Shown piece by piece: positions 19,142 through 58,924 of a DNA stretch of 64,000 nucleotides. Positions within the stretch are counted from its first letter, which is position 1, and every line of letters starts with the position of its first letter. A model generated the notes under the pieces. That model made no database searches and was not told the DNA's origin. It saw only the letters and a program-made list of their open reading frames with translations. The translations under genes and the position numbers were made by a program. Where the stretch lies: positions 32,001 through 96,000 of IMG/VR virus record IMGVR_UViG_3300045988_176357; one strand, written 5' to 3'. The stretch comes from a virus.

Positions 19142-19150
19142 GGAGCTTAG

Positions 19151-25684: not shown

Positions 25685-26416
25685 ATGCCGTAGTTGCAGG
25701 GAACAGTCAATAATATCCAGCGACAGAAGATGCAGTTCATCTCCGATGTGCTGGATCCTACACCAACTGTCATGTACAGAGCTGATGACTATAAGACTCA
25801 GCGCAAGTTGATCTTTGAGCGTGTTAAGAATGCTGTTCAGAAGAGATTCCCTCTGTACAATGATAAATATGTACTGTAGGTGTAGAACCTCGACTACGCA
25901 GATCCATAGGAATTCTCTTATGCTGACCAGAAGAAAGCTGTTCTGTAGGGGACGTCTGTAGGCAGAAGACTTCGTGGCAGCTATGTGCTCAGAGATGCTG
26001 CAACTAATCAGGTGGTCTCAAGAACGAAGCCGCAGACGCTCCTGAAAGTTCCATACATGACAGATCGAGGCACGTTCATCAACTCAGGTCATGAGTACAC
26101 ATTCAATAACATCATGCGTCTGTAGCCTGGTGTGTATACACGCAAGAACAACGATGACGACATTTCAGCACAGTTCAATGTGAAGAAAGGCACTGGAGCT
26201 GGATTCAGCATGACATTTGTTCCCAGCAAAGGTGTCTTCCAGATAAGCAGAGGCACTGCAAACGCTCCTGCATATACTGTGCTGAAAGACTTAGGTGTTA
26301 CAGATTAGCAGATGAAACAGGCGTGGGGCGACTAGCTGTACAATACCAATAAGTAGTACGGTACCGGGTAGAAGGCACGCATAGCTTCCAACAGAATCTA
26401 CAATTACAACTCATGA
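25685..26416 (+). CDS. Multisubunit RNA polymerase beta subunit, N-terminal fragment.
   Basis: AAGGAG RBS and ATG 25685. Frame 2. …DRGTFINSGHEYTFNNIMRLQPGVYTRKNNDD… aligns with bacterial beta [24 protein letters not shown]. TGA 26414-26416. Confidence 0.6.
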
Positions 26417-27674: not shown

Positions 27675-27686
27675 GCAGAGGACACA

Positions 27687-27917: not shown

Positions 27918-27940
27918 GCTTACACACAGCACATTCAATG

Positions 27941-27990
27941 GGCCGCTTCCCTTCAAAACTGGCAAGGGAGGTGGCCCATTTGTATTATAT
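27941..27990 (+). terminator. Terminator-like hairpin.
   Basis: Near-palindrome gggccgcttccctt…aagggaggtggccc followed by a T-rich run. Confidence 0.4.
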
Positions 27991-28041
27991 GCACAAACAG
28001 ACACGGGGTCTGCAAAACAAACGAACTGAAAGGTATTGAAA

Positions 28042-28404: not shown

Positions 28405-28411
28405 AACGAAT

Positions 28412-28930
28412 ATGGATATAATGGGATTGCTGGTGCCTATTCTTTCAGGCTCACCTGAGATAAAGGGCAAGTTGGAATCGGTGTTCGGACAGCCTGTCGA
28501 TCACATAAGCAAATGTGTGAGTCAGTTCATGGACGGCATAAAGAATGGTCCGGGTTTAGTGGATAAGTAGCTGCAGAAACAGCAGAGATTTATGCACATT
28601 TACCAGAGCGGACTGCGCATGGGCTTCCAGGATTACTAGGCGTAGATAGCCGCAGCCGATTGCGCTGGTTATCCCGTTATAGACGTTGCAAACTCCTTCG
28701 CTTAGCGGCGAGGATGGAACTGCACAATATAGGAAATATAGCAGCTCCATGACAAAATCATGCCCAGATTCATGTAGATGGGCAGGAAAACCGGACTGTT
28801 TCAAACTGAAAAGAAAACCTAGACAGCTCCAAAAGGGATCCCGAGCGTGCAGGTTACAGGAAGTGCGAAATAGCCTCCGTGGAGAACGGCGGAACAGCCA
28901 AAAGGTGCACCTGTTCCACCTGTAAAATAA
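28412..28930 (+). CDS. Hypothetical protein.
   Basis: ATG 28412, frame 2, about 11 TAGs, TAA 28928-28930. The 348-aa minus-strand standard-code ORF overlapping here looks antisense. Confidence 0.35.
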
Positions 28931-28954
28931 CAGCACCTGAAAATGAGGTAAGAA

Positions 28955-29497
28955 ATGAGTTACAATGATACGAATTGCGGTCACACCGGATGGGGTGTGG
29001 GTCTGTCTGCCATAATCGGCGGCGCTCTTGGATACTGGGCAGGTCGTTCCAGCGGTCCCGGAGGGTTTGGAGGGTACGGATGTTACGGCTTCCCGGCAGG
29101 GTATGCTGTGGCTGCTTAGAACGGTCACTGTTCGACATGCTTCGAGCAGGGTGTTGAGTCCGGTCAGACTCTCGCAGGTCTGAACTACATCGGCCAGCAG
29201 GTTGCTTCTAACAGCAGAGACATCGCCAACTCGATGACAGCTCTCAGCAACCAGCTCAACAATCAGACAGCTGCTATCCAGGCGCGTTTCGATGCGCTCA
29301 ATCAGCAGAAGATCGCGGATCAGGCTGCCTAGATCGCGGCTCTGCGTACGCAGAACGTTGTCGGTCTCAATGCTGCTGCTACCAACATGCAGCTCACGAG
29401 TCTGAACGATAAGGTCAGCTCTATCATAGCTGGCTGCGCAGTCAGGTCTGTCAATGCATGTCCGACGAACAACTGCTGCGGCTGCTCTAATCAGTGA
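28955..29497 (+). CDS. Type-II-like membrane protein: N-terminal transmembrane segment, coiled coil and Cys-rich C-terminus. Spanin-like architecture.
   Basis: GAGG RBS and ATG 28955. Frame 2. TGA 29495-29497. Confidence 0.35.
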
Positions 29498-29873: not shown

Positions 29874-29892
29874 GGTAATCTCAGGTCCGCAA

Positions 29893-29930
29893 AGCCCTCT
29901 TACTGCAACAGGTAAGGGGGCTTTTTTGTG
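29893..29930 (+). terminator. Rho-independent terminator.
   Basis: Hairpin aagccctcttac…gtaagggggctt followed by a T-run. Confidence 0.6.
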
Positions 29931-29987: not shown

Positions 29988-32900
29988 ATGGCTCCATTTA
30001 ATACCTCCGGCAAAGCTCCCAAGAACGCGCAAGACTGGGTCAGGTAGCTTCGCTTTTCCAACGATGTAAACATGAGCACTGTCGGTGTGGATACAGACAG
30101 AGTCACTCCTTAGCTCATGCTCGCTTCCAGCAAGAAACTTCTCGGAATCTCCAGAGGCTAGCAGGAAGGAGACGCGAAGGACTCGCTCAGATACCAGAAA
30201 GTGTTCGGACCTGTAGAGTACTTTGCGTAGAGAATACAGAAGGACGGAGGCAGCGTAGCCAGATCAATGCTGTGGAAGGCTACCAACAGAGGCAACGTCG
30301 ACTTCATCAACTCAGGCAGTCTGTAGCCGCACGTCAGTGCAGTGTTCCACCAGAGTAATCTTTCGCAGTTCGTCGACAACAGCACACCTCTCGACGGCAT
30401 CGACAACTCCATGAAGGTCACACGTGTCGGTGAGGGCGGTATATCCAGCGACTAGGTTGCGCCTATTGAGATGCGTCTTGTGCAGCCTTCTTACTATGGG
30501 TACATCGGTTCGGCTCGTACTGCATAGCGCTGTTACAGAGCCGATACACTCATTCTGACCAAGAAGGGCTGGAAGCCTGTAACACAGATGTCCATGGACG
30601 ACGAGTTCGCCACACTCATAGACGGCAGACCTGCATGGCACAGACCTATAGCGCTCAACAGCTACGACCATGATGGACCTATGTACTGTTACAACGGTCG
30701 CTACATCAAGTTCTCCGTCACTCCCAGTCACAGGATGTATGTAGCACAGGATAAAGACTACAGCATACAGTACATCGATCAGGTCTTCGGCAATACAGTG
30801 AAGGTTCTGTGCGCTGTCGACAAGGCGTCCAAAGTCGACTAGAAGCAGAGGTGGTTCTACTTGCCGCAGGTATAGTCCCCAGCAGCCAACTGCAAGAACA
30901 TATAGAAAGTGGACATTGTCGACTTCGCATAGTTCATGGGCTGGTATCTCAGCTAGGGCAGCCACGACTTACGCACAACCAAGCGAGGACAGAATTACAG
31001 AGTCCGTATTACACAGTCTCCTACAAAGAATCCTGAGCACTATGCACAGGTGCTGTAGCTTATGGACAGACTTCCGTTCACCTACAGCATAGACAGCAGA
31101 GACGGATCAGCCAATATTACAATCCTTCGGAAGCAGCTATACATGTATGTCAAACAGTTCGGACACAGTGAAGACAAGTTCATCCCTGAGTGGATCTTCC
31201 ATGCTCCAACTGCAGCGAGATGGGCATTCGTCGATGCGATCCTTAAGGGTGACGGCAAAGGCGCCAGAGATCTGTGCACCATTTCAAGCAGACTCGCAAA
31301 TGACTTTGCAAGGCTCATGTTCGAGCTCGGACAGTCTGTCAATATCATAAAAGAGCTGCAGAAATACGAGCACACAAAACGTCAGGTCAACCCCTAGGAA
31401 GATTTCCTGTACACAGTTACCTGGCACAGAACATTCTAGTCCACACTGCAAGGGCTTGGATAGAGATCAGGATATTATGTATAGGAATATAAGGGCAAGG
31501 TCTACTGTCCCACTGTCCCGGGAGGTCTCGTATATGTGAAGCTTCCGGGAGCTGCAAAAGGTTTCTGGTGCGGCAACAGCCCCGGCATCACAGGTTACAT
31601 GACAAAGAACGTCATGAAGGGTACAGACGGCAAGCTGTACCAGAACATGCTCAATGTTCGTACAGGTAAGATAGAGCCTGTTGACTCACAGAAAGCTGCA
31701 GCCTCGGTAGTCACAACCAACTAGTACATGAACACGGACGACGAATACGTGTACGCAATGGGCGGTCCCAGAGGCGTACGCATTGTCAAGAAGTCCGATA
31801 TCGACTACATACTTCCTCACTCGGATGATGCGTACTCAATGGCAGCCAACTACGTGCCCATGTATTCAGGCATCAAGTCGATGCGTCTGCTGATGGGCTG
31901 TTTGCATCCGGATACACCTGTGCTTGTTGTAGACAAAGACGGATACACAGACATCATCCCTGCAAAGAGAGTGGGACATGTCGGCACCATATATCTTGCA
32001 GGCTGTGACAGCAACGGCAGCGAAGCTATGTACAAGGTAAGGAACGTTGTTCCCAGAGTGCCTGACAAAAAGAGCAAGTTCCGCAAGATCATACTCCAGT
32101 CCGGCAGAACACTCATCACATCACCGTGCCACAAGTGGTACATATACAAAGACGACAAGTTCAACCTTGTTCCTGCTTCGTAGCTCAAACAGGGCATGCT
32201 TGTTCCAAGAACAGTGTTCCAGACTGTACCTGTAAGGAGTGCAACTGTAGCAGGCAAGCCTGTCACAAGAGAGATAGCAGTCCTTATGGGAAGACTTTGC
32301 GCCTCTTTGTAGGTAGTGGGAACAACTGTCAGGTTCTCTTTCGTTCGCGACAGGAACCCTGAAACAGACCAGAGACAGGACATCACAGACGCTCTTGCAC
32401 AGCTCGGTGTTGTGAACTACACGATATACACGCACAAATAGCAGACCTGGTGCAACATCAAGGACTGCGTCTTCAGGGACTGGATTGCGTAGAACATCGG
32501 TCGCGATTAGCAGCACAAACGCATACCGAAAAGCATGCTCTCACTCGACAGAGGCTATACGAGCATCTTCCTCGATTCCTTCTTCAAGACTCTGGATACA
32601 GTCGCATAGGACATCACAGGTGACAACTGGCTGCTCAGGCTTCCCAATCCCACTGTGCGCGACGGTGTTGCGTTCATGCTCACGAAGATCGACACCGATA
32701 CCAATTTCAGAGACGCAGTGCTTCCTGATCACAGAATCCACAGAGCACTGCACTTGCTTCCCATACAGAGAGGCAAGCACGATGTCATCCTGTAGCCCAT
32801 TGTCAGCATAGAGGAAATGCCGACACCTGGAATGATGATCGACATCGACTGTGACGACAACGTGTACGCAGTTGCGAACGGCATCATCACACATAACAGC

Positions 32901-35900
32901 AAGTACGGAACACAGGCAGTCCCTCTCCAGTAGCGTTAGGCTCCTTTTGTTCGCGCACTTGACTAGCAGTCCGGATAGGACATGCCTACGAGACTCGGAA
33001 GACTCCTCGGCACACAGTGGGCATAGAAGCCAGGTATGGTGAAAGCTGTTCGCAAGGACAGAATCGACATGCTGTACGACGACGGCACGAAGGGATCAGT
33101 GTATCTGTACGACAACTTCCCTGCCAATGCGAAGGGCTGGCTGACCAACTACGTGAAGGTCAAGGCCGGTGACAAGGTTGCTAAGGGGCAGCTGCTGGCG
33201 TCTTCCAACTACACTGACGACAACGGCGTTGCAGCTACAGGCAGGAACCTGCGTGTAGGCTACATGAGCTATCATGGCGCGACGTATGAGGATGCCTGTG
33301 CACTGTCGTAGTCGGCTGCGAAGAAGATGGGCTACACGATCATGTACAAGACAGGCATGGACAAGGACAAGTCCATCCGTACGTCCAAGCAGCTGTACAA
33401 CACCTGGAAGCCAGGACAGTACACAAAGTAGCAGCTGTAGAAGCTGGACGATTTCGGCGTGGTCAAGCCGGGCACTGTTTTGCAACCTGGCGACCCGATG
33501 ATCCTTGGTATCCGAACTACTGAGCCCTCGCCCGGCACACTTGGCAAGAGGATCCTCACCGATGTTACCTAGACATGGTAGCACAGCACACCGGGCACAG
33601 TCACGGACGTGACGAATACCAAGAGCGGCATCAAGGTGTACGCTACCGTCAGCAAGCCACTGTAGGTAGGTGACAAGATGTGCTACGATGAGTAGACGTA
33701 GGTACTGACAGCTGATGGCTGGAAGCGTTTTGCTCAACTCACATTGCATGACAAAGTGTACACGCTCGATCCTGATTCCGATACCATATAGCTGCAGCAC
33801 CCTGTGATGGTACACAGATACAGACATAAGGATCCGATGTACAAGCTCTGCACAAGAGACATCGACCTTATGGTCACTCCCAACCACAGGAACCTTGTCA
33901 GGATACATGCCGCACAGGGACCTGCCAAGTATCGGCTGGTGCAGGCAAGTGAGCATTATGGCGAGCTGCTGTAGATGCGTACAGGTGCGGAAGGTGCTCG
34001 CCGGGATGTGCCCGTGAACTACGCTGCGGACGACGTGTAGCAGTGGGTCGCCTACGACGGCTACGTGTACTGTGCCACTGTGTAGAAGTACCATACGCTG
34101 TACGTGCGCAGGAACGGCAAGGCAGTATGGTCAGGCAACTCTGGCTTCTAGGGCTCCAAAGGCACGGTCGCACAGGTCATCCCTGACGACAAGATGCCGA
34201 GGGACTCGCAGGGCAGGCCGCTGTAGCTGCTGTTCGACCCGCTTGGAATCATCAGTCGCACAAATCCCTCGCAGCTCATGCAGGCAGGACTCGGCAAAGT
34301 GGCAGCCAAGACAGGCAAGCCCATAGTGATGCCTCAGTTCATGCCCAAGGGACAATCAAGGCTCAAGTATGTCAAGGACCTCATGAAGAAGAACAATGTT
34401 CCATGGTCCTAGGACGTGTACGATCCGTAGTCAGGGCGCACAATCAAGAACGTCTTCACAGGCGTCGCCTACTACATGCCTCTCAAGCACCTTGCATAGT
34501 CCAAGATGAGTGCACGAGGCACTGAAGGGTACGATGCATCAGGTGTGCCGAAGTCCGGTGGTGAGCATGGAAGCAAGAAAATAGGACAGCTGTAGAGCAG
34601 CGCTCTGGTCGGACACGACGCCTTCGACTTCCTCACTCAGGACGCCAAGCTCATACGCGGCCAGTCCAACGCCGACTTCTGGCGCTCCATTCGCACAGGC
34701 CAGATACCTGTCGTCCCGGGCTAGCCTCTCGTGCACAAGAAGTTCTTCGCGCACCTGCAGGCTTCTGGACTCAACGTCCGCAGATCCAAGTAGGGCGTCT
34801 CTCTGTTCGCACTCTCCACAAAGGACGTGGACGACATGGCAGGCAACAGATAGCTCAAGTCAACAGACACATACGAGCAGAAGAACTTCAGACCCATCGA
34901 CGGCGGTCTCTTCGGACAGGACATCTTCGGACCCGACGGCATGAACTGGGGCTACATTCAGCTCGACAGCCCTCTCCCGAACCCCGTCATGTAGTAGCCG
35001 CTTGCGCGTCTCCTGCGCATGTCCGACAAGGACTTCCAGGCAGTCGCTCAGGGCAGAGCCACGGTCAATGGCATCTCCAACGCAACATAGATGAAACAGG
35101 CGCTGGCAAAGATCGACCTGTAGAAGGAAGCCCAGCAGTCGCTCGTATAGCTCAAGGATGCACGGCCCTCAAAGAAGGACGCTGCGCTGAAGCGCTATGT
35201 AGCCATTGCCAAGATGCGCGACAACGGTGTTCCTCCTCAGGACTACATGCTGGACAGAATACCGGTGCTGCCTCCCAAGTTCCGCCCGATCACACAGCAC
35301 GGCGGTCTCACAATGGTAGCAGACAGCAACTACCTGTATGCGCAGCTGCTGAACGCAAGGGACGACCTGCGCTAGGCACAGAAAGAAGGACTGCCCGCTG
35401 AGTACATCACCGACGCGAACGCGAAGCTTTACACGAAGTGGAAGGAACTGGTGGGGCTGTACGACCCATAGGACGTGAAGCTGAAGAACAAGTCGGTGAA
35501 GGGCCTGCTGAAGTGGGCCCTCGGCACGAGTCCCAAGCGCTCGGCGTTCGCCACGAAGGTGCTGGGGTCGACGGTGGACACTGTGGGACGCGGAGTCATT
35601 GTTCCCAGTACTAAATTACGATTGAATGAGATCGGGATGCCGGTGGACATGGCGTGGGATGTATATGCGCCTTTTGTGGTGCGCAAGCTGGTGCAGCGGA
35701 ACTACACACCTGTGGACGCCATGAAGATGGTCAAGTAGCGTGTGCCTGCGGCGTTCGATGCACTGCAGCAGGCGGTGAGCGAGCGGCCTGTGGTCATGAA
35801 CCGCGCTCCCTCGCTGCACAAGCTCAGTCTCATGGGCTTCAATGTGAGGCTGACAAGCGGCAAAGCTATCAAGATCAACCCCTCAATTGTTGTCCCGTAC

Positions 35901-37889
35901 GGAGCTGACTTTGACGGAGACTCATGTAAGTCGTTGATAATCATATGGTTACAACAAAAATAGGGCTCTCAGGTAGCAAAAAAGATATATAGAGGCAGTT
36001 AGAATTGGCACTTGACAAATGCGAAATCTGGTGTATATTACCTTCATAATGACAAGGAGCCGCAGCTCCAGAACCAACAATAGAAAGAAGGTAATACAAT
36101 GATTTCCAAAAATGAAAAAGTCTCAGTGATGCCGTATCTTATGGAACTCTCTGAAGTTCCTGTCATCAAAGGATCGGAAGTTGCCAAGTCGCCTACTGTC
36201 ACCGAATGGGATGTTGAGGAAGGCACTTTGGTGAACACCATAGACCCTGCTACAGGTGAGATTGTGTTTGCTCCCATGACAAAGGTATCCAGGCACACAA
36301 ACCTGAAAATGTTCGACGTGAAGTTCGGTATCAGCGGAGCCTATGAGCACATGTCCACAGTGTCTGAGGATCACAGCTTGATCACATATAACAGCACATC
36401 TATGGAACTGGAAAAGACCAGACCTGAAGAAGCCCTCGGCGCATGTGTTCCGATGACCAGATTCAACTGGTGCAACAAGGTTAACGATGAGCAGGGATGT
36501 GCAACTCATATCAACTTCCCGTCTGGTAACTACTCACTGTCCTACGATATGGGTGTCTTCTTTGGCCTCATGGTCGGTGACGGTTGGGTAGCCAGCACAA
36601 GTGCCAACACAAAGGTGGCCCATATCGCTTGCTGCGAAGAGTCCCTGCAGAACTACATATTGGAACTGACAAAGAGCGCGTCTATGCCGTTCACCAAACA
36701 GGCGGCACTATTCAGCTATGCAGCGGATGAACAGAGATTCAGCCAGCGAGACAAGCAGAGATTCACTATCTACATGGATAACGAAGATAAGGCGTTCCTT
36801 GAGAAGCTCATAGGTCATGGTGCCGAGAACAAACATATCCCCTATAAGAGCTTCATGGGAAGCATAGCACACATGATTGGCGTCCTTATGGGTCTGCTTG
36901 CTACAGATGGCGCGGTATCACATACGCCTGGAAGCGGAAACAGAAAGTCAGCTAAGAAAGCTATCATTTACCACACTGTAAGTCCTACACTGAGAGATGG
37001 AGTGCAGGATTTGGCATGCAGGCTTGGTATAAAGACAAGTGTCACGACATACACTGGCACATCTTCTGGAAACACAGCATATGCAATTGTGTTCTCACTT
37101 GAGGACTTTGCTAGACTGTACGATAAGAATCCGACAAGATGTGTGATACCTGTCAGCTATAAGCAGGAAGCTCTTATGCGTATCGTTAACGATGTGCATG
37201 AGAACAATAAAGCGTCGTGCAAGACCACCGTCACTTCTTATGATATAGTGCCGTTCCCTCGCGGACTGTTCTGCGAGTTCAGCTGGGCAAAGATTGTCGA
37301 CATCTCAAGAGACAGTGTCATAGCTGCACGTACCAAAGGCTTCATAAAGAGAAGCGTCGCAAAGCGTATTGCAGATGCTCTTGAGCGTCGCGACTGGTCT
37401 ATCTACAAAGATCCTGCATACCTCAAGAAAGCTGACCAGACGCATCGCACTCCCGCCCAGGCCAAGGCACTTGTGGACAAGTGGATCGCCATGGTACGCA
37501 ACGACGACATCGGCTGGGAAGTCGTGACAGACGTGACTCCGTCCACATGCACTGAGGGATGGGACTGCACAGTGCCTGGACCGTACACCTTCTCGCTCAG
37601 CACAGGAACTATTGTGCAGGACACCGTGAACCTGCACGTGCCTGTTTCACAGGCCGGTATCCGCGACGTGCGCTAGAAGATGATGCCCGAGCACAATCTG
37701 ATCTCAGCGAGAAAGCGCAAGATATTATACGCACCGTAGAAAGCTTATACGCAGGGACTCTATGTAGCCACAAGAATGGGTGAGGCCAAGGACGTGAAGA
37801 CCTTCAACACGCTGCAGGAAGCCAAAGACGCCTACAGAAAAGGCCTCATCGACGTGGATACACCGATACTGATCAAGGAGAAGCGATGA
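29988..37889 (+). CDS. Multisubunit RNA polymerase: beta subunit C-terminal two-thirds fused in frame to beta' N-terminal half, one 2633-codon ORF interrupted by four inteins.
   Basis: ATG 29988, frame 0. Every frame-0 track fragment (30588, 31062, 31536, 31728, 33036, 35475, 35742, 36099) falls in this frame. Codon-checked at 32160-33060, 33680-34150 and 34680-34980. Beta motifs recovered: HSDDAYSMAANYVPMYSG…SKYGTQAVPLQQRQ (≈HDDANRALMGANMQRQAVP), GRNLRVGYMSYHGATYEDACALS, KPL(TAG)VGDKM…SGFQGSKG (≈QPGDKMAGRHGNKG). Beta' motifs recovered: FRPIDGGLFGQDIFGP, NRAPSLHKLS, YGADFDGD…LHVPVS. A roughly 35-aa linker joins beta and beta' with no TGA or TAA. TGA 37887-37889. Confidence 0.75.
30531..31577 (+). 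mobile_element. Intein 1 in RNAP beta, with a LAGLIDADG-like homing-endonuclease segment.
   Basis: Starts AQR|CYRADTLILTKKGWKP (block A). Block B FSVTPSHRMYV. Contains WAFVDAILKGDGKG. Ends …GFWCGN|SPGITGY. Confidence 0.6.
31899..32897 (+). mobile_element. Intein 2 in RNAP beta, inserted within the GANMQRQAVP motif.
   Basis: …SMRLLMG|CLHPDTPVLVVDKDG… Block B LITSPCHKWYIY. Ends …VYAVANGIITHN|SKYGTQAVP (canonical HN+Ser). Confidence 0.7.
33681..34139 (+). mobile_element. Intein 3, a mini-intein in RNAP beta, inserted in GDKM|AGRHGNKG.
   Basis: VGDKM|CYDEQTQVLTADGWKRF… Block B MVTPNHRNLV. Ends …AVWSGN|SGFQGSKG. Codon positions verified. Confidence 0.65.
35922..37622 (+). mobile_element. Intein-like insertion 4 in beta', directly after the catalytic DFDGD motif: Hint block B plus two LAGLIDADG motifs, with non-canonical junctions.
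   Basis: GADFDGD|SCKSL…; block B HMSTVSEDHSLITY; FFGLMVGDGWV and LMGLLATDGAV; …TGTIVQD|TVNLHVPVS. Alignment with E. coli DFDGDQMAVHVP places the exteins at DFDGD / TVNLHVP. The 35940-36098 segment is AT-rich and contains only TAG stops. Confidence 0.5.
36012..36039 (+). promoter_or_regulatory. Sigma70-like promoter (TTGACA-N16-TATATT) plus a downstream GAAGG RBS, inside the intein-4 region and upstream of the internal ATG at 36099.
   Basis: ttgacaaatgcgaaatctggtgtatatt read directly from the sequence. May be coincidental. Confidence 0.25.
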
Positions 37890-38278: not shown

Positions 38279-38971
38279 ATGCGTACCTACACACAGATAT
38301 ACAAGCAAGCCAGAGATCTGAGAGATGCAGCAAAAGACGCCCGATGGCGTGCTTAGCTGAAGCACTTTGTGGATACCCTTCCGGATCTGTCACTTATGCA
38401 TCCTGATCTGACTCCGCAGCAGTACGCCGCCAAGGTGAAAGCTTCTCCGCCAGTTCCTTTACAGCCTTTCTCAGCTAAAGTTCTGCGTCCCTATTCCAGT
38501 GCTGCCGGTACTTACAAGCAGAACTTACAGAATGCAGCCATAAATGCCCTTGCGCAGACATAGTCCAGTAATAACAGGTTCGCCGTATCTGCTCCCGATA
38601 GGAAAGGCAGACAAGCTGTTGGAACATACCAGATACGTAGGCCAGCATTGGAACAGCTGAAGAAATGGAAGCTTGTTAAGCCGCATGTTACACAATAGGA
38701 TATTCTGTATGATGCATAGCTGAACAAGACACTAGGACCGCAGTACTTTCAGCGTATAAGTAAAGGCAGCCCATCTCCAGCTGTAGCCTATGCAAGATAC
38801 TTCAGAGGGCCTAATGCATATAAGAATGCTCTGAACAGAGGCTAGCTGCCAAAGGGAACCACGGAATAGGCATGGGCAAATAAGTTCAAGTAGGTACAGA
38901 GATACATGCAGAACTATAACAGGTAGCTGAAGCGCATTCCGGCAACCTCGAAAGGACCTGTGCAGCGATGA
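38279..38971 (+). CDS. Hypothetical protein with weak SLT/lytic-transglycosylase-like signature.
   Basis: ATG 38279, frame 2, about 12 TAGs, TGA 38969-38971. AVGTYQIRRP… and AVAYARYFRGPNAY resemble SLT motifs only loosely. Confidence 0.3.
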
Positions 38972-40272
38972 TCCCAGGGCTCCCCGACAGGCGCAACTAC
39001 GGTGACCTCGCGTCGCTGAAGCCATAGCAGACGTACACATTGCTGCGGCAGCTGCACAATGCACAGCGTGCCGGACGGCACGTGGACTTCCGCATAGGTT
39101 CTCCGTAGCTTGGTCTGTTCAGCTGGGCAGCACCTAAAGACCTTCCGACGCAGGCAGGCCAGAAACGGCTCCTCATATCGCAGCCTCTGCACACGTACGC
39201 ATACAAGGACTTCACAGGTCCCATCTATTCAGCTTATGGGCGTGGCACTGTATAGAAGCTTTAGTAGACGCCTATAGTCATCCTGCAGAACAGCCCTGAC
39301 AAGATCAAGTTCACACGCGCCGACAAGCGCAACGCGCCGGTGTACACAATGATCCGCACGCGCAACGGCAACTGGCTCACGTCCATCGTCAGCGACGACG
39401 CGCCGCCTGTCATCAGGCAGTACGACAAGTAGCACTTCAAAAGCATCTCACTGCAGCAGGCAGCCAATCTACTGGACCTTGGCGCTCAGGCCTATCCGAA
39501 GGCGGACGGCACAGGAGCACTCGCACAGGTGCGCAAGAACAGCATATAGGTGTACGGGATCCGCAAGGACAAGAACGGAAATCTGATACGATACACAGAC
39601 CACATAGGCGGACTCAGGGACATGAAGATCCCTCCGCAGCTTGTAGGCAAGGTATTCCGTGTAGAGGTCACAGGTTAGCAGAATGGCAGACCCATACAGC
39701 CCAATACTCTCTCAGGACTGCTCAATGCTTCTCTGCAGAGGAACATACAGGCACGCAAAGACAATAACATCAATCTGTTCATGTATGCACTTGCTCTTGC
39801 AGACAAGCAGGATCAATATGACAAACAGCAAGTTAACGAGCTTGTCTCCCAGCTGCAGTCTCCGAAGCTGCGTACATTGCCGAAGGTAACAGCACAGTAG
39901 TTCCAGGATCAGCTCAGACAGATGCGTGAGGGTACACATCCCATAACTCAGTAGGGCTTCATAATCCATCCCAAAGGTGGAAGACCGCTCAAAGCTAAAT
40001 TGCTGCAGGATGCAGATGTCATAGTACGTGATATATTCCCTGCATAGACACAGGATGGACAACGCGCAGGAGGATTCACGTACAGCTTGCCTGGACAGTA
40101 GACTGTTGTAGGCAGAGTAGGCACCGGTTTTACACATCAGCAGCTGCAGGATATGCTGCAGCATCCATAGCAATACACAGGCAGGACAGCAAAGATACAT
40201 GCGATGTCTCAGTATCCTTCAGGTGCATACAGAGCTCCTGCCTTCATATCTTTCAGAGCGGAAGGAGATTAA
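38968..40272 (+). CDS. ATP-dependent DNA ligase.
   Basis: ATG 38968 (ATGA overlap). Frame 1. Motif I AYPKADGTGA (KxDG). Motif IV (TAG)GFIIHPK. C-terminal motif VI YRAPAFISFRAEGD (≈LRFPRFIRIRED). TAA 40270-40272. Confidence 0.55.
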
Positions 40273-41832: not shown

Positions 41833-42998
41833 TGGAAGTGTCCAGAAACATGAAGATTCTCGCAAAGCTTGCAAGCATAAATAAAGAAGCGCAGGGCAAT
41901 CCGATGCTCGTGTCTTCCCTTATCGGTGCCGGTGCTGGAGGACTTGCAGGAGACCTCACTTCACAGCTGCTGTGGAAGAAGCCGACTAAGACGCAGCGGA
42001 TTCTGTCTGCATTGGTCGGCGCCGGTCTTGGTGCAGGAACTGGCGCTGCTGTTACAGGTTCATTCGGACACAAAGCTGTATAGAATATTCCTGCGAGATT
42101 GCAGTCTATGTATTAGAATGCTATCGGCACAGTGTCAGGCAAATTGCCCTCCAAAGAGGACTTTGCATCCATGTCTCCTACAGCGAAAGCTATGTATGGC
42201 AGCACCAATACAGGAGATAAAGCTGCTGACAGACTAGGATCTGTTGTCAACACTCTGAAAAAGTCAGTAGTCGGATAGAATGACAAAGGCAGCGGTGTTA
42301 TAATTCCAGCACAGTTGGCAGCAGGAGGTATTGGCGGAGTCTTCGGCTGGAAAGGTGCTGTGTAGGCCCTTAACAGGCAGGGCAGACGAATACAGCTTAT
42401 AAAGGCTCTGGAAGATAAAGCAGGTGCTAATCCTGCGTTGTGGCGAGCTGCAGATATCTTGAAGATTTTCAAAATAAAAGGCGGCAATCCTGTTACTAAA
42501 CTTATCGATTAGATACAGGAAAGCTCTAAGCTTACAACGTCACCTCGTGCATATAAAAATAACCTTGCCAGTATAGTTCGGAATTTCCATAAGAGGAATG
42601 AAGCCAGTAAGGCTGCAGGTATGGGAGCTATAAGTGATACAATCCGGCAACGGTATTATGGAAAGTACAGGAACAAAGATCTTGATGCCTTCAGGCTGAA
42701 GGGCAGACAGAATGCCACAGCATTAGAGACCTTGTTCGGTTTGTCGAAACGCAGAGCCGGGCAGGTATTCGACAACACAGGTATCAAGACCGGTATATCC
42801 GCTGACGAAGCTGCCAAACTCCGGAATATGGTGACAAATCGTCCTCTTGGAAAGATGAAAGGTGCGGCTGGACTGCTGGCAGGTATCTTGTCTGCTGCTG
42901 CGTCGGCAGGTGGAGCCGGATATATAGGCAACGCACTTGCAGGTAACAATGCACGGTATCAGCAGGCGCTGACAAACCTGTAGAATGCTTATAAGTAA
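41832..42998 (+). CDS. Gly-rich membrane protein.
   Basis: ATG 41832 (TGATG overlap). Frame 0 links track ORFs 41829-42083 and 42621-42983. TAA 42996-42998. Confidence 0.4.
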
Positions 42999-43009
42999 CA
43001 GGTGCTGAA

Positions 43010-45319
43010 TTGGCTGTCACCACATTAGGCAGATAGGTAATCAAACAAGCGCTTCCTTAGAAGTACAGGAGCTTCGTTGACTAGCCCCTCACAAAGGCTC
43101 GCCAATAGAAGCTCACTACGCAGCTTGCCAAGGACAATCCATAGGCTTACATAGACATCCTGCAGAAGCTGAATGCCATCGCGTAGTCGACTGTATCTAC
43201 GTACGGCAAAGACACTACCATCACTCTGGATGACATAGATGCTGGAGAGAATGTGCGCAAGATGCATGCTAAGCTCCAGTAGCTGATACGTACTGTTGTG
43301 AACAGGAAAGATCTCACTCCGTAGCAGAAGTAGCAGAAGGTCATCTAGCTGGGTTACAAGTACACTGCACTGATGAAGGACCTTGGATTAAAGGATGCTC
43401 AGTAGCGTCGTACAGGTATTGCAAATCAGATTGCATCTGGATCCCGTGGCAACCCTGTACAGCTTATGCAGCTTCTTGTCGGCGACATGCAGATGCGTGA
43501 TGCCGCCAACAGGGACATCCCTTATCTTGCTACTATGCCGTATGTGGACGGTGATTCGCCTATGTCCTACTGGGCATCGAGCATGTCCGGTAGAAAATCA
43601 ACTTACGATACGCAGGCTGCTACAGGCATGGCCGGTTACCTGAACAAACAGGCAACCAATGTTATTCAGGCAACACCTATAGCTATGCGAGACTGCGGCA
43701 CTACCAATACAGGTGTGCCGGTATCAGCTACAGATCCTTAGAATGTAGGCTCCATACTGCTGCGCCCATGGAAGAACCATCCTGCAGGAACACCTGTCAC
43801 GTAGGAGATGCTGGACTAGGCTTAGTAGGGTGACGAGATTGTGATCCGCAGCCCGAACACATGCAAGGCTCACAACGGTGTGTGCGCTATGTGCTCAGGC
43901 ATCCAGGAAAACGGCAAGCTGCCTGCTGTAGGAAGCTACGTGGCACTGAATGCCATGAAGTCCTTCATCTAGCCGCTTACGCAGGCCGGTGTAAGCTGTC
44001 TGCATCCTGACACAAAGGTAAGTCTGGCTGAAGGTGGATATAAAAGAATAGCAGATATACAGATAGGCGATACTGTAATAGGTTGCGACATAGCAGGTAC
44101 AACTACACCTGTAAAGGTCACCAATGTATTCCATAATGGAATTCAGCCTGTATACAGAACTGTATCTGTTACATAGTCTGGTAAGCACTTGTAGCTCTTA
44201 TCCACACTTACACATAAATGCCTTATGCTGATCTAGGATGCACAAGTTCCAGCACTGCTGCCTATAGGGACACAGGCTAAGAAACGCTATATAGTACTGT
44301 CAGATAGGTCTGAGTAGCAAAAAGCTTAGATAATACAGCAGACATTCGTAGGCGATATATAGACCATAGATATCTAGGTTGACCATCCTGATCATCTGTT
44401 CCAACTTGTTGATTATCAAGTGGTAGCAAATTCGAAGCATGGTTCTGGTATGGGCGGCAAAAAGAGCTAGGACCCAGACGGCTAGGACCAGCCTACAGGG
44501 TTCGACTCCATAGCGCGCATGCTCCTTGTGCCCTCTACATTCCCTGGTGGCGCAGTGCTCTCTCAGGTCGATGGTCGCGTGTCATCTGTACGTCCTGCTC
44601 CGCAGGGAGGCAACTACATTACAGTCGGCACCAATACGGTATATGCGCCACGCGTACGTACAGTAACAGTAAAGCCCGGCGACATCGTGTAGGCTGGAGA
44701 CACCCTTACCAATGGCGTGCCTAATCCCATGTAGGTAGTCAAATACAAAGGTATCGGCTAGGGCAGACATTACTTCACGAACAAGCTTTTCGAGCTGCTT
44801 CCGAAATCCGGCGCAGGCACAGCAAGACGTAATGTGTAGCAGTTCGCCCGCGCCCTCATCAACAAGGTTCGCATAACATCCGACCAGGGTTTCGGCGGCT
44901 ATTATCCTGGCGACATTGCAGATTACGACGATATAGCGTAGAAATGGAGACCCAGAGAGGACAGCAAGATGCTGAACCTCAAGGAAGCCACAGGAAAGTA
45001 CCTGTAGGAGCCAGCACTGTATTACAGCATAGGAACAAGAATAACACCCAAGGTAGCCAAGAAACTGCAACAGTACGGTTACCAGCAGGTGAATACCAAT
45101 TAGAATCCTCCGCCGTTCTAGGCGAAGTTCGTAAGCTCCAAAGCGTTCTCTACTACGTAGAGGCGCTGGTTGCCCAGACTTAACGGAGAACGGCTTAAAG
45201 AGGCTATCTTCGACGCTGCAAGAACTGGAATAACTGACAGTTATGACAGCCCTTCATTCGTCGACAAGCTTATCATAGGCCCCTATAATCCGGCAAACAT
45301 TAAACCAGCAGGAATATGA
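43010..45319 (+). CDS. Multisubunit RNA polymerase beta' subunit, C-terminal fragment, carrying one mini-intein.
   Basis: Frame 2 opens after TAA 42992-42994; start codon uncertain (TTG 43010, or ATG 43262 which lies inside homologous sequence). …SGSRGNPVQLMQLLVGDMQM…YWASSMSGRKSTYDTQAATGMAGYLNKQATNVIQATPIAMRDCGT aligns with beta' …[20 protein letters not shown]…[45 protein letters not shown]. C-terminal GDTLTNGVPNPMQVVKYKGIGQGRHYFTNKLFEL… is also conserved. TGA 45317-45319. Confidence 0.7.
43997..44431 (+). mobile_element. Intein 5, a mini-intein in the beta' trigger-loop region.
   Basis: SFI(TAG)PLTQAGVS|CLHPDTKVSLAEGGYKRIADIQIGDTVIG… ends …YQVVAN|SKHGSGMGG. Confidence 0.6.
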
Positions 45320-48350: not shown

Positions 48351-48353
48351 TAT

Positions 48354-58596: not shown

Positions 58597-58924
58597 TGGC
58601 GCTCCCACTGAGATTCGAACTCAAGATCTGGCGGATTTCATTGATAATCGAGGACTTACAACAATCCTGATATCTCTGGACTATATCATCTTCTCCGTTT
58701 CCAGAGAAGGAGCGCTTCGGACTTTCGTCCTACTCCCTTGCGGGATAGTCTCTGAACCCTTTCCGGGCTCCATAGCTTTCGCCTTAGGAGATCCCTTGAT
58801 CGGCTGCTGATTGCCTTCGGCGTTACCCGTTAAGGTGTCCCAGCAATTCACTTTCTTGTTCGACACACCTCGCGGTGTGAAGCTCCAAACAGAGTCCGCT
58901 GTTCTGCCATTAAACTATGGGAGC
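58597..58924 (-). tRNA. Amber-suppressor tRNA, anticodon CUA, split by a group I intron. Exons are 58924-58891 and 58638-58597.
   Basis: The spliced product folds as a cloverleaf. Acceptor GCUCCCA/UGGGAGC, U8, D-arm GUUU-AAUGGCA-GAAC, anticodon stem GCGGA/UCCGC, loop C-U-C-U|A-A-A giving anticodon CUA, T-arm UUGAG-UUCGAAU-CUCAG, discriminator G, encoded CCA. Confidence 0.7.
58639..58890 (-). mobile_element. Group I self-splicing intron (252 nt) inside the suppressor-tRNA anticodon loop.
   Basis: 5' exon ends in U, which pairs as U•G with the internal guide GGAG (a 4-bp P1). The intron ends in G (…CAAUG). P7-type core strands UUCAGAGACUAUC and GAUGAUAUAGUCC are present. Confidence 0.65.

What the first reader, a model, noticed from the sequence alone, without database searches (positions are those of the whole stretch)
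29988..37889. RNAP beta (C-part) and beta' (N-part) fused into one 2633-codon ORF interrupted by four inteins
A single frame-0 ORF carries the beta motifs (GANMQRQAVP-like, NLRVGYMSYHGATYEDACALS, QVGDKM/SGFQGSKG, the C-terminal …FAHLQASGLNV…). A roughly 35-aa linker follows with no TGA or TAA. The beta' N-terminus (FRPIDGGLFGQDIFGP) and the catalytic NRAPSLHKLS…YGADFDGD…LHVPVS region then follow, before TGA 37887. Four Hint-domain insertions sit exactly inside the most conserved motifs: within the ANMQRQAVP-like motif, within GDKM|AGRHGNKG, directly after DFDGD, and upstream of SPGITG. Two or three of them carry LAGLIDADG endonuclease segments. Jumbo-phage multisubunit RNAPs are normally split into separate beta and beta' fragments. 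A beta–beta' fusion carrying four inteins is an unusual architecture. It also implies that active polymerase requires four protein-splicing events.
Basis: partly seen in the sequence, partly recalled or inferred. Interest (0 to 1): 0.85.

Follow-up and report, generated by a model that had tools for sequence, protein, structure and literature searches.

The report
Intein-riddled fused phage RNA polymerase gene
A phage that reads the stop codon TAG as glutamate encodes its main RNA polymerase subunit (beta fused to the front half of beta') as one 2633-codon gene broken up by four self-splicing inteins, and the fourth intein carries its own promoter and a TAG-free endonuclease gene and is a truly split gene in related phages that use the standard code.

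Summary
Bases 29988-37889 (+) form one 2633-codon frame with 64 in-frame TAG codons and no TAA or TGA before 37887.

With the four inserts removed, the 1231-residue product is colinear with bacterial beta (C-terminal two thirds) followed by beta' (N-terminal about 550 residues).

Three parts of the interpretation need correcting.
- **Code.** TAG here encodes Glu, not Gln, so table 15 is wrong. An intron-containing tRNA(CUA) gene lies at 58597-58924 (-).
- **Fusion.** It is not peculiar to this phage. Cultured Salmonella phage Arash (gp206, its most abundant virion protein) and Vibrio phage D69 carry the same fusion in the standard code.
- **Intein load.** Relatives carry 1-5 inteins at seven or more sites in this gene. 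The beta' C-part gene in this window has a fifth intein.

Inserts 1-3 are ordinary class-1 inteins. Insert 4 (Ser1 ... Gln-Asp|Thr) is different:
- Standard-code relatives have two separate genes here, with a short N-fragment of 20-34 residues.
- In this window the gap stays open in frame, with only TAG codons.
- The gap keeps a sigma-70-like promoter, a ribosome-binding site and an ATG.
- The 508-codon C-part has no TAG at all.

The parts
29988..37889 (+). Whole ORF: 2633 sense codons plus TGA. Precursor of the fused beta(C-part)-beta'(N-part) RNA polymerase subunit.
   Evidence: AAGGA lies 7 nt upstream of ATG 29988. A terminator-like hairpin lies upstream at 29891-29924.
29988..30530 (+). 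Extein 1 (beta). Ends ...IGSARTA(TAG)R, which corresponds to the ...R-TPES motif of Arash.
30531..31577 (+). Intein I1: 349 aa, Cys1 ... Gly-Asn | Ser+1, with a LAGLIDADG-type endonuclease domain. Contains 10 TAG.
   Evidence: Homologous inteins sit at or near this site in L004, L011, L012 and L008. The I1/I3-family profile hits PI-PkoII (7e-13) and the AceL NrdHF intein (3e-6).
31578..31898 (+). Extein 2 (beta). Ends ...MRLLMG.
31899..32897 (+). Intein I2: 333 aa, Cys1 ... His-Asn | Ser+1, inside the LMG|(ANMQRQAVP-like) motif. Contains 7 TAG.
   Evidence: Pfam Intein_splicing E 4e-8, 33.5 bits against a cut-off of 35.8. A homologous intein sits at the same site in L004-L007, L010, L011 and L012. 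The profile hits PI-PkoII and PI-PfuI at 9e-4 and gp41-1 at 3e-3.
32898..33680 (+). Extein 3 (beta). Ends ...VGDKM.
33681..34139 (+). Intein I3: 153-aa mini-intein, Cys1 ... Gly-Asn | Ser+1, a paralogue of I1 without the endonuclease domain. Contains 6 TAG.
   Evidence: The alignment with I1 and the L004 inteins shows shared blocks CYxxxTxxxTxxGWK, VTPNHR and VYC(P/A)TV. The same site is occupied in L008 and L010.
34140..35921 (+). Extein 4: the end of beta (to about 34790), then the beta' N-terminus through the catalytic YGADFDGD (35907-35921 encodes DFDGD).
34767..34811 (+). Beta/beta' junction ...GLNVRRSK-(TAG 34791)-GVSLFA.... It is continuous, with no TAA or TGA.
   Evidence: The standard-code homologues Arash gp206, D69 and L004-L007 are uninterrupted across this point.
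35922..37622 (+). Insert I4: 567 aa, Ser1 ... Gln-Asp | Thr+1. Atypical intein with a LAGLIDADG domain.
35922..35960 (+). I4 N-fragment-like strand SCKSLIIIWLQQK. It aligns without gaps to the tails of gene 1 in the split relatives (SAADLVRIEV..., TTRNQVRIHI...).
   Evidence: Position 1 is Ser, Thr or Cys in all 9 family members seen.
35961..36098 (+). I4 spacer: GC 37%, TAG at 35961, 36000 and 36081, and no TAA/TGA in frame 0 against 3 and 4 in the other two frames.
36012..36039 (+). Sigma-70-like promoter TTGACA-16-TATATT, 11 of 12 matches. It is the best site in 29.5-38.5 kb.
   Evidence: A -35 hexamer TTGAC(A/T) lies at a similar distance from DFDGD (76-90 nt) in L008, L010, L011 and L012, followed by a -10-like TATAnn (a poorer match in L012).
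36084..36101 (+). AAAGAAGG ribosome-binding site and ATG 36099, the internal start of the I4 C-part.
   Evidence: The equivalent ATG is the start of gene 2 in L008 and L010.
36099..37622 (+). I4 C-part: Hint plus LAGLIDADG, 508 codons with no TAG and 29 GAA/GAG. Read in the standard code, the ORF runs on to TAG 37674-37676.
   Evidence: - One search lists the ORF 36099..37676.
- One search gives P about 1e-13 for zero TAG.
- The AlphaFold model has pLDDT 82.5, and Foldseek returns PI-PfuI at 1e-15 and the TliVMA intein at 2e-15.
- Pfam LAGLIDADG_3 scores 36.9 bits.
37623..37889 (+). Extein 5 (TVNLHVPVS... to ...ILIKEKR) plus TGA.
25685..26416 (+). Separate gene for the beta N-terminal part. 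It matches Arash gp206 residues 29-210.
   Evidence: It is also a separate gene, 1.6-5.7 kb upstream, in L004, L005 and L007.
42995..45319 (+). Beta' C-part gene (Arash gp216-like, Pfam Rpb1_5). It is interrupted by a 145-aa mini-intein at 43997-44431 (CLHPDT ... VVAN|S).
   Evidence: L005 and L007 lack the insert.
58597..58924 (-). tRNA with anticodon CUA. A 252-nt group-I-like intron (58639-58890) sits in the anticodon loop. This tRNA is the decoder the ORF depends on.
   Evidence: ARAGORN -i reports tRNA(cta) i(35,252). Rfam Intron_gpI scores 31 bits, below its gathering score of 50.

Best explanation
The ORF is the precursor of the large catalytic subunit of a phage-encoded multisubunit RNA polymerase. 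By homology with phage Arash, this enzyme is probably packaged in the virion.

**Translation and splicing.**
- It is translated with UAG read as Glu by a phage tRNA(CUA).
- The 2633-residue precursor then removes four inteins by protein splicing.
- This leaves a 1231-residue chain: beta from about the fork/Rpb2_6 region to its C-terminus, joined directly to beta' from its N-terminus to just past the NADFDGD loop.

**Assembly.** This chain assembles with a separately encoded beta N-part (25685-26416). It also needs a beta' C-part (42995-45319), which must splice out its own mini-intein.

**Inteins 1-3.** They are conventional class-1 inteins (Cys1, terminal Asn, Ser+1). They have lived in this gene long enough to acquire TAG codons at the same rate as the exteins.

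**Intein 4.** It belongs to a family with Ser/Thr/Cys at position 1, a terminal Asp and Thr+1. Its first beta-strand is separated from the rest by a spacer.
- In two standard-code relatives the spacer is a true intergenic region. The polymerase gene is then split and must be joined in trans, as an atypically split intein with a 20-34-residue N-fragment.
- In this phage and the other TAG-recoded relatives the spacer is kept free of TAA and TGA, so the element is translated through and splices in cis.
- The spacer still holds a promoter, a ribosome-binding site and an ATG, and the C-part is kept free of TAG.
- I infer that the C-part, a LAGLIDADG homing endonuclease, is also made on its own when UAG still terminates.

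**Shown:**
- the ORF, the code assignment and the fusion;
- the insert positions and the intein homology;
- the split state in relatives;
- the TAG-free ORF and the conserved promoter-like site.

**Inferred:**
- splicing activity;
- virion packaging;
- independent expression of the endonuclease.
For: **ORF and code.**
- 64 in-frame TAG and no other stop.
- Residues aligned with TAG in standard-code relatives, over 736 aligned positions: E 238, D 123, K 54, A 44, Q 39. This matches the profile of GAR-encoded Glu in the same alignments.
- Glu is the best assignment by 158 nats over Asp and 219 over Gln.
- GAA plus GAG make up about 1% of codons in the TAG-rich genes.
- A tRNA(CUA) gene is present.

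**Fusion.**
- tblastn to Arash gives one piece, 98% coverage, E 1e-145, under a single annotated CDS.
- The alignment across the junction has no break in Arash, D69 or L004-L007.
- Arash gp206 is the most abundant protein found in virions (PMC10585845).

**Inteins.**
- The boundaries are C...(G/H)N|S for I1-I3, and the extein motifs are restored exactly against intein-free homologues.
- Profile matches to solved inteins.
- The structure model of the I4 C-part matches the endonuclease-containing inteins PI-PfuI, TliVMA, PI-PkoII and PI-SceI.

**I4 anatomy.**
- L008/L009 and L010 have gene 1 ending NADFDGD plus 20-34 aa and a stop. Then come 102-144 nt with stops in all frames, then gene 2 starting at the equivalent ATG.
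- P0013-P0018 have the same gene-2 form.
- Recoded L011 and L012 have open spacers containing only TAG.
- The promoter-like site is conserved.
- TAG/GAR counts: I4 C-part 0/29, exteins 38/21, I1-I3 23/18. L011 and L012 show 0/27 and 0/37 in the C-part.
- Identity of the I4 C-part tracks identity of the exteins across four genomes.
Against: - No experimental evidence of splicing exists for any of these inteins.
- I4 ends in Asp rather than Asn and lacks the penultimate His. Splicing with a terminal Asp is known only from a few inteins; this rests on my own knowledge, not a test.
- The short N-strand of I4 in this window (SCKSLIIIWL) is only weakly similar to those of relatives. In the model of P0008 the equivalent strand has only moderate confidence (pLDDT about 65-69), and I could not inspect whether it docks.
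- In L007 the residue before the intein is Asn instead of the catalytic Asp, so at least one family member may not yield an active enzyme.
- The promoter is only a consensus match.
- TAG-poor genes in this window also include the major head protein and a scaffold-like gene. TAG avoidance therefore does not by itself mean early expression.
- The amino-acid identity of the tRNA(CUA) could not be read from its sequence.
Confidence: 0.8

Rival explanations
1. Beta and beta' are two genes. TAG 34791 terminates beta, and beta' starts just after it at the GTG of GVSLF....
For: A TAG lies exactly at the junction, and GGC GTG follows it.
Against: - TAG occurs 64 times in this frame, including inside universally conserved motifs.
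- Six standard-code homologues are continuous here.
- No ribosome-binding site was seen upstream of the GTG.
- A tRNA(CUA) is encoded in the window.
Confidence: 0.03
2. Insert 4 does not splice. It is an autoprocessing or decayed Hint-endonuclease module, and the polymerase works as two non-covalently assembled chains cut at DFDGD. Alternatively, this gene copy is inactive.
For: - The terminal residue is Asp and there is no penultimate His.
- The first strand is poorly conserved.
- The standard-code relatives are physically split.
- L007 has Asn at position -1.
Against: - Ser, Thr or Cys is at position 1 in 9 of 9 members.
- V-Q-D-T at the C-junction is invariant, as is the block-B His (SxDH).
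- The frame is kept open across the spacer in all recoded genomes.
- A domain of about 500 residues left attached next to the catalytic Asp triad would probably obstruct the active centre. This last point is inference.
Confidence: 0.13
3. Insert 4 is removed at the RNA level, as a group I or group II intron carrying a LAGLIDADG ORF.
For: - LAGLIDADG ORFs are common in group I introns.
- The ORF has its own ATG.
- The spacer looks non-coding.
Against: - Rfam finds no intron in 25-46 kb even at E up to 1, although it does detect the tRNA intron elsewhere in the window.
- The frame is continuous on both sides in this window and in L007, L011, L012 and P0007-9.
- The fold is Hint plus LAGLIDADG, like PI-PfuI.
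- The C-terminal Hint blocks abut the extein.
Confidence: 0.02
4. The I4 C-part is TAG-free because it arrived recently from a standard-code phage by homing, or because only TAG-free lineages can keep spreading into standard-code genomes. On this view it is not translated on its own.
For: - It is a homing-endonuclease element.
- Empty target sites exist in the standard-code relatives L004-L006.
- Its GC3 is lower than that of the exteins.
Against: - Its divergence tracks that of the exteins: 67, 52, 41 and 40% against 68-81, 57-63, 33-45 and 34-45%.
- It is TAG-free in at least three recoded genomes that are 52-67% identical.
- I1 also carries an endonuclease, yet it has 10 TAG.
- The promoter-like site, ribosome-binding site and ATG are retained.
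Confidence: 0.15
5. TAG encodes Gln (table 15).
For: Every recoded-TAG phage I know of is reported as TAG to Gln (own knowledge).
Against: - E outnumbers Q 238 to 39 at aligned positions, with a log-likelihood difference of 219 nats.
- CAA/CAG usage is normal, while GAA/GAG are depleted about five-fold where TAG is frequent.
- TAG sits at the E of TPE(S/G), at an E conserved in all relatives in ...G(Q/S)L-E-S (the GEME motif, as I recall it from E. coli beta) and at PGE-P.
Confidence: 0.03

Closest known systems
Salmonella phage Arash gp206 (WGL32657.1), and the equivalent CDS of Vibrio phages D69, D181 and D148
   Same: - One polypeptide joins beta to the N-terminal half of beta'.
- It is colinear over 98% of the stitched exteins (29% identity, E 1e-145).
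- The gene set is the same: a portal gene upstream, and a separate beta' C-part followed by a helicase-like gene downstream.
- In Arash it is the most abundant virion protein.
   Different: - Arash and D69 use the standard code and have no inteins in this gene.
- They include the beta N-terminal part of about 245 residues in the same chain.
- D181 and D148 are interrupted by a free-standing homing endonuclease gene instead of inteins.
Naturally split 'atypical' inteins with a short N-fragment: AceL-TerL (25 aa), GOS-TerL (37 aa), Cat-TerL (30 aa); PMC11766414
   Same: - The I4 family in L008 and L010 has a 20-34-residue N-fragment at the end of one gene and the rest of the intein at the start of the next gene.
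- Like those inteins, it comes from phage-type metagenomic DNA.
   Different: - The host protein is an RNA polymerase, not a terminase.
- The C-fragment keeps a full LAGLIDADG endonuclease domain.
- The nucleophiles are Ser/Thr1 and Thr+1, and the terminal residue is Asp.
- In the window itself the two parts are joined by a translated spacer, so it is not split.
Endonuclease-containing inteins PI-PfuI, PI-PkoII, TliVMA and PI-SceI
   Same: - The architecture is Hint plus LAGLIDADG. Foldseek E values run from 1e-15 to 1e-9 for the I4 C-part.
- The I1 family profile matches PI-PkoII at 7e-13.
   Different: - Sequence identity is 10-15%.
- I4 has a spacer after its first strand and a terminal Asp.
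TAG-recoded phages using code 15 (Lak, crAss-like and others)
   Same: - TAG is in-frame and read as sense.
- The phage encodes a tRNA(CUA).
- Some genes remain TAG-poor.
   Different: - Here the amino acid is Glu.
- TAG is the majority Glu codon (about 64% in this ORF's exteins) rather than a minority Gln codon.
- TAG to Glu is known to me only from ciliate and trypanosomatid nuclear codes (tables 30 and 31; own knowledge).
Split multisubunit RNAPs of phiKZ/AR9-type jumbo phages, and the rpoB-rpoC fusions of Helicobacter and Wolbachia (own knowledge)
   Same: - The catalytic core is of the beta/beta' type.
- Subunit boundaries are shifted relative to those of bacteria.
   Different: - Here the break points are after about 245 residues of beta and after about residue 550 of beta'. 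The second is near the cyanobacterial gamma/beta' break.
- The fusion joins the end of beta to the start of beta'.
- No close sequence relationship to the phiKZ enzymes was seen.

Membership tests
Multisubunit RNA polymerase beta / beta' | Rpb2_6 domain of beta, and the Rpb1_1/Rpb1_2 domains of beta' with the Asp-triad loop (NADFDGD). | tested here: met
   - Rpb2_6 scores 158 bits and Rpb1_2 scores 96 bits.
- Rpb1_1 scores 35 bits, below its cut-off of 39.7.
- The loop reads YGADFDGD.
- The extein aligns to solved beta and beta' chains at E 1e-46 to 1e-49.
Arash-type fused beta-beta'N subunit | A single chain that is continuous across the junction between the beta C-terminus and the beta' N-terminus. 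| tested here: met
   No TAA/TGA or frameshift lies in 34767-34860. Arash, D69 and L004-L007 are continuous at the same point.
Arash-type fused beta-beta'N subunit | The protein is packaged in the virion. | not testable with these tools
   This is known only for Arash, from mass spectrometry.
Intein (class 1) | An in-frame insert inside a conserved host motif, absent from homologues, with the host motif restored on removal. | tested here: met
   This holds for all four inserts.
Intein (class 1) | A nucleophile (Cys or Ser) at position 1, and Cys, Ser or Thr at +1. | tested here: met
   I1-I3 have Cys1 and Ser+1. I4 has Ser1 and Thr+1. Position 1 is Ser, Thr or Cys in 9 of 9 members of the I4 family.
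Intein (class 1) | C-terminal Asn, usually as His-Asn. | tested here: not met
   - I1 (GN), I2 (HN) and I3 (GN) meet this feature.
- I4 does not. It ends Gln-Asp, and the Asp is invariant in the family.
Intein (class 1) | Hint fold. | tested here: met
   - I4 C-part: model with pLDDT 82.5, with solved inteins as the top Foldseek hits.
- I1/I3 and I2: profile matches to solved inteins, and Pfam Intein_splicing or Hint_2 below their cut-offs.
- No structure was modelled for I1-I3.
Intein (class 1) | Protein splicing activity. | not testable with these tools
   This needs expression experiments or proteomics.
LAGLIDADG homing endonuclease domain | Two LAGLIDADG-type helices in an alpha-beta-beta-alpha-beta-beta-alpha core. 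| tested here: met
   - I4: Pfam LAGLIDADG_3 at 36.9 bits against a cut-off of 22.5, and I-DmoI/PI-SceI fold matches.
- I1: a profile match to the PI-PkoII endonuclease region at 7e-13.
- I2: nothing detected.
- I3: no such domain, as it is a mini-intein.
Atypically split intein (AceL-TerL type) | The N-fragment and C-fragment are encoded by separate genes. | tested here: not met
   - In the window the two parts are in one frame with only TAG (Glu) codons between them.
- The feature is met in the relatives L008/L009 and L010.
Genetic code 15 (TAG to Gln) | TAG positions correspond to Gln in homologues. | tested here: not met
   E 238, D 123 and Q 39. Glu is favoured by 219 nats over Gln.
Group I intron in a tRNA anticodon loop | Match to the group I covariance model, and splice sites that restore a cloverleaf. 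| tested here: inconclusive
   - Rfam Intron_gpI scores 31 bits against a gathering score of 50, with E 6e-6 in the 801-nt search.
- Removing 58639-58890 (which follows a U and ends in G) gives a canonical 76-nt tRNA with anticodon CUA.

The most novel reading that the evidence does not exclude
This phage lineage uses a genetic code not described for viruses or bacteria: UAG means Glu. UAG has replaced most GAA/GAG codons in many genes, and it is read by a tRNA(CUA) that must first lose a group I intron.

Inside this recoded polymerase gene, the fourth intein keeps a promoter and a homing-endonuclease ORF that stays readable in the standard code. The same DNA would then give two products:
- a free endonuclease while UAG still terminates;
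- a cis-splicing polymerase precursor once UAG is decoded.

In standard-code relatives the same element is a trans-splicing split intein with an endonuclease-bearing C-fragment.
Probability: 0.45. Interest if true: 0.9.

Novelty: new variant of a known kind. Interest (0 to 1): 0.77.

Why it matters
**Protein splicing as a condition for transcription.** A polymerase whose catalytic subunits need five protein-splicing events shows how far inteins can load an essential gene. Two of those events sit right at the Mg-binding loop and in the trigger-loop region. In these phages, protein splicing becomes a precondition for phage-driven transcription.

**A natural series for intein splitting.** The fourth intein links three forms of one element at one site:
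- contiguous with a translated spacer;
- contiguous only because a stop codon is recoded;
- physically split.

This is a natural series for studying how split inteins arise. It is also a possible source of short-N-fragment split inteins with Ser/Thr chemistry for protein engineering.

**A code that annotation pipelines would miss.** The UAG = Glu code matters for annotation. Pipelines that try only table 15 will mistranslate about 3-5% of residues in these phages. The code also raises a testable question about how a CUA tRNA comes to be charged with Glu.

Tried and rejected
**Searches that did not help.**
- Megablast of 27-41 kb against the phage collection found nothing.
- The tRNA(CUA) could not be assigned an identity by similarity. 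Its nearest annotated phage tRNAs are Asn, Arg, Trp and unnamed suppressors at 76-79% identity.
- Literature searches for TAG to Glu in phages found only TAG to Gln and TGA to Gly/Trp reports. Absence from that library is not proof of novelty.

**Ideas rejected.**
- I suspected that the 5' end of I4 was frameshifted relative to L007, with the alternative frame reading C-VDNHMVTTKIG.... I dropped this for two reasons:
  - frame 0 aligns without gaps to the gene-1 tails of L008 and L010 and to P0007-9;
  - the alternative frame contains TAG and TAA.
- I first read the TAG-free I4 ORF as a recent import. This was rejected as the main explanation, because the ORF co-diverges with the exteins and is TAG-free in other recoded genomes.
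- 'TAG-poor means early gene' was rejected as a general rule, because the major head protein and a scaffold-like gene are also TAG-poor.
- The off-frame ORF 34565-35401 matched relatives in tblastn. Its product is Arg-rich, low-complexity sequence from the wrong frame of a GC-rich stretch, so it is not a gene.

**Limits of the tools.**
P0008 was used instead. Its N-strand is modelled as a strand at moderate confidence, but its contacts could not be inspected.
- ARAGORN in default mode missed the suppressor tRNA.

Full report
**1. The observation**

Translating 29988-37889 in frame gives 2633 sense codons. All 64 in-frame stops are TAG, and the first TAA or TGA is the TGA at 37887. The nearest upstream in-frame TAA/TGA is at 29913.

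ATG 29988 is preceded by AAGGA, and further upstream by a terminator-like hairpin at 29891-29924. Throughout the window the + strand gives long ORFs only if TAG is read as sense. The ORF is therefore real under a TAG-sense code.

**2. Which amino acid is TAG?**

Three results say Glu.

- **Codon usage.** In the exteins and in inteins 1-3, GAA/GAG are rare while TAG is frequent. The exteins have 21 GAA/GAG and 38 TAG in 1231 codons, and CAA/CAG are normal. The same holds for most large genes of the window.
- **Aligned residues.** I aligned 13 or more window proteins to standard-code relatives (Arash, D69 and three IMG/VR contigs).
  - The residues opposite TAG are E 238, D 123, K 54, A 44 and Q 39.
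  - That is the same profile as for GAR-encoded Glu of the window, and unlike that for Gln.
  - A BLOSUM-based likelihood puts Glu 158 nats above Asp and 219 above Gln. The counts are not independent, but the margin is very large.
- **A decoder tRNA.** The window encodes a tRNA with anticodon CUA on the minus strand.
  - Its 5' exon is 58924-58891 and its 3' exon is 58638-58597.
  - A 252-nt group-I-like intron sits in the anticodon loop.
  - Rfam Intron_gpI scores 31 bits, below its gathering score.
  - ARAGORN with introns allowed reports tRNA(cta) i(35,252), and the spliced RNA is a canonical cloverleaf.
  - Its charging identity could not be read from similarity.

Searches of the held literature found only TAG to Gln and TGA to Trp/Gly for phages.

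**3. The fusion**

With the four inserts removed, the 1231-residue chain carries Rpb2_6 (158 bits), Rpb1_1 (below its cut-off) and Rpb1_2 (96 bits). It aligns to solved bacterial beta over extein residues about 111-789, and to beta' residues about 142-546 over extein residues 835-1228.

The closest annotated relatives are cultured phages:
- **Salmonella phage Arash gp206.** It has 1525 aa, gives a single tblastn piece with 98% coverage and E 1e-145, and is annotated only as 'beta subunit'.
- **Vibrio phage D69.** In its sisters D181 and D148 the gene is interrupted by a homing-endonuclease gene.

Arash, D69 and four IMG/VR relatives (57-64% identity) all use the standard code, and all run without interruption across the beta/beta' junction. 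The TAG at 34791 is therefore an ordinary sense codon, and the fusion is a clade character. In Arash, gp206 and the beta' C-part gp216 are among the most abundant virion proteins. That is why I call this a probable virion RNAP.

The window differs from Arash in one respect. The first roughly 245 residues of beta are a separate gene here (25685-26416), 3.6 kb upstream. The same arrangement is seen in L004, L005 and L007. The beta' C-part is ORF 42995-45319.

**4. Inteins 1-3**

The boundaries are:
- I1: ...TA(E)R | C...GN | SPGITG
- I2: ...RLLMG | C...HN | SKYGTQAVP
- I3: ...VGDKM | C...GN | SGF(E)GSKG

I2 matches Pfam Intein_splicing at E 4e-8, and so do all its homologues. A homologous intein occupies the same site in L004-L007, L010, L011 and L012.

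I1 and I3 are paralogues. They share the blocks CYxxxTxxxTxxGWK, VTP(N/S)HR and VYC(P/A)TV, and I3 lacks the endonuclease domain. Their joint profile hits PI-PkoII (7e-13) and the AceL NrdHF intein (3e-6). The I2 profile hits PI-PkoII, PI-PfuI and gp41-1 more weakly.

These three inteins carry TAG in the same proportion as the exteins: 23 TAG to 18 GAR. They are therefore old residents of this genome.

Across the clade I counted at least seven insertion sites in this gene, and L011 and L012 carry five inteins each. One oddity stands out. I1 lies four codons downstream of its 58%-identical homologue in L012, although the spliced exteins are colinear.

**5. Insert 4**

It starts directly after DFDGD with Ser and ends Gln-Asp before Thr-Val-Asn-Leu-His.

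*Intein nature.*
- Its C-part (from Met at 36099) has Pfam LAGLIDADG_3.
- A 17-sequence profile hits the DnaB mini-intein (6e-6) and PI-SceI (4e-4).
- An AlphaFold model (pLDDT 82.5) finds PI-PfuI, the TliVMA intein, PI-PkoII and PI-SceI as its best structural matches.
- No group I or II intron model matches the region.

It is therefore an intein-type Hint-endonuclease module.

*Split relatives.* The unusual part is the first 59 codons. Database homologues fall into two forms.
- In the standard-code genomes L008/L009 and L010 there are two genes.
  - Gene 1 ends ...NADFDGD plus a 20-34-residue tail (SAADLVRIEVTSEIFEKMLK*, TTRNQVRIHINLKEL...*).
  - Then come 102-144 nt with five stops in every frame. 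This stretch holds a TTGAC(A/T) hexamer followed by TATAGT or TATAAT, and an AAAGGA ribosome-binding site.
  - Gene 2 then starts at the Met equivalent to 36099. It runs through the Hint-LAGLIDADG module, VQD|T, and the rest of the extein.
- P0013-P0018, P0022 and P0023 have the same gene-2 form.

This is the layout of an atypically split intein with a short N-fragment, so far described for phage terminases.

*Recoded genomes.* In the window and in the other TAG-recoded genomes (L011, L012, P0007-9) the same stretch is a multiple of three long. It has no TAA or TGA in frame 0, against 2-5 in each other frame, and it contains 0-6 TAG. Its GC content is 37%, against about 50-57% for the coding parts. 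It keeps three signals:
- the promoter-like site, which in the window is TTGACA-16-TATATT at 36012-36039, the best match in 9 kb;
- the ribosome-binding site;
- the ATG.

The window's tail SCKSLIIIWLQQK aligns without gaps to the gene-1 tails (S1, L5, I6, I8, L10). Position 1 is Ser, Thr or Cys in all nine members seen. In the alignment of the I4 C-parts (17 sequences), the block-B His, V-Q-D and Thr+1 are invariant.

*TAG avoidance.* The C-part has 0 TAG among 29 Glu-type codons, where 64% would be expected (P about 1e-13). The same is true in L011 (0/27) and L012 (0/37). Its divergence nevertheless tracks that of the exteins in four genomes. TAG avoidance has therefore been maintained; it is not a trace of recent arrival.

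**6. How it most likely works**

*Shown:*
- the ORF, the code and the fusion;
- the insert positions and the intein homology;
- the split state in relatives;
- the open spacer and the TAG-free C-part.

*Inferred:*
- The precursor is made once UAG is decoded as Glu.
- Four cis-splicing reactions then give the 1231-residue subunit.
- That subunit joins the beta N-part and the spliced beta' C-part.
- I4 splices with Ser1 and Thr+1 and by cyclisation of its terminal Asp. Such Asp-terminal inteins exist, to my knowledge, but are rare.
- The retained promoter, ribosome-binding site and ATG, together with the TAG-free ORF, suggest a second product. This would be a 525-residue protein, the I4 C-part plus 17 extein residues ending at TAG 37674, made while UAG still terminates. 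It would act as the homing endonuclease.

The main caveat concerns that second product. The major head protein gene (54390-55418) and a scaffold-like gene (52054-53334) are also TAG-poor. TAG avoidance may therefore also reflect translation efficiency.

**7. Comparison and novelty**

- The fusion is a new member of the Arash type.
- Inteins in RNAP subunits are known in archaea, eukaryotes and giant viruses (own knowledge).
- Inteins 1-3 are ordinary.
- Two things are new variants:
  - the I4 family, which is an endonuclease-bearing intein with Ser/Thr1, a terminal Asp and Thr+1, split in some phages and bridged by recoded stop codons in others;
  - the UAG = Glu code in which the whole gene is written.

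Neither new variant has been tested experimentally.

**8. Other points**

- The beta' C-part gene carries a 145-residue mini-intein (43997-44431, CLHPDT...VVAN|S) in the region before the conserved ...KHGSG. It is absent from L005 and L007.
- ORF 50075-52027 has another mini-intein (50321-50746; Hint_2 4.6e-7, above that family's cut-off).
- The window therefore holds at least six inteins.

Noticed in passing
Whole window, + strand genes. Examples: 19142-21025, 42995-45319, 48351-52027.: TAG is read as Glu, not Gln, and is the majority Glu codon in most genes. TAG makes up 3-6% of codons, while GAA plus GAG make up about 1%.
   Followed up: yes
window 58597-58924 (-): An amber-suppressor-type tRNA (anticodon CUA) is interrupted by a 252-nt group-I-like intron (58639-58890) in the anticodon loop. 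It lies directly downstream of tRNA-Met (58932-59007). Default ARAGORN missed it.
   Followed up: partly
window 43997-44431 (+), inside ORF 42995-45319: A 145-aa mini-intein (CLHPDT...VVAN|S, 7 TAG) sits in the beta' C-part gene. It is absent from L005 and L007, so the polymerase needs a fifth splicing event.
   Followed up: partly
window 50321-50746 (+), inside ORF 50075-52027: A 142-aa mini-intein (CFVAGT...VVHN|C; Pfam Hint_2 4.6e-7) sits in a TAG-rich 650-aa protein of unknown function.
   Followed up: partly
window 52054-56309 (+), and 7628-8740 (+): A cluster of TAG-poor, GAR-using genes: an acidic scaffold-like protein, the major head protein (phrog_2522) and a 270-aa ORF. A tail protein at 7628-8740 is also TAG-poor. 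Codon choice for Glu is therefore gene-specific within one genome.
   Followed up: partly
window 30519-30533, compared with L012: Intein I1 is inserted four codons downstream of its homologue in L012 (R|C..N|TAEKSPGITG against RTAER|C..N|SPGITG). In L008 it is three codons downstream. The intein appears to have slid within one motif.
   Followed up: partly
L007 14369-14390: The standard-code relative L007 has DFDGN|C at the I4 site. The third catalytic Asp is replaced by Asn next to a Cys1 intein that ends Trp-Asp.
   Followed up: no
window 25685-26416 (+) and 26353-29497: The beta N-terminal part is a separate gene. About 3.5 kb of small ORFs with no family matches lie between it and the main ORF. 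The length of this gap varies from 1.6 to 5.7 kb among relatives.
   Followed up: partly
window 3870-6767 and 12671-14440 (+): Large proteins with collagen-like G-x-y repeats and repeated modules, probably tail fibres.
   Followed up: no
window 38920-40272 (+): A protein whose C-terminus matches the ATP-dependent DNA ligase family phrog_114 (6e-13). It lies directly downstream of the polymerase gene.
   Followed up: no
window 34565-35401 (+, off frame): A 279-codon TAG-free ORF lies in another frame of the GC-rich junction region. Its Arg-rich product and its matches to the same off-frame of relatives indicate an artefact, not an overlapping gene.
   Followed up: partly
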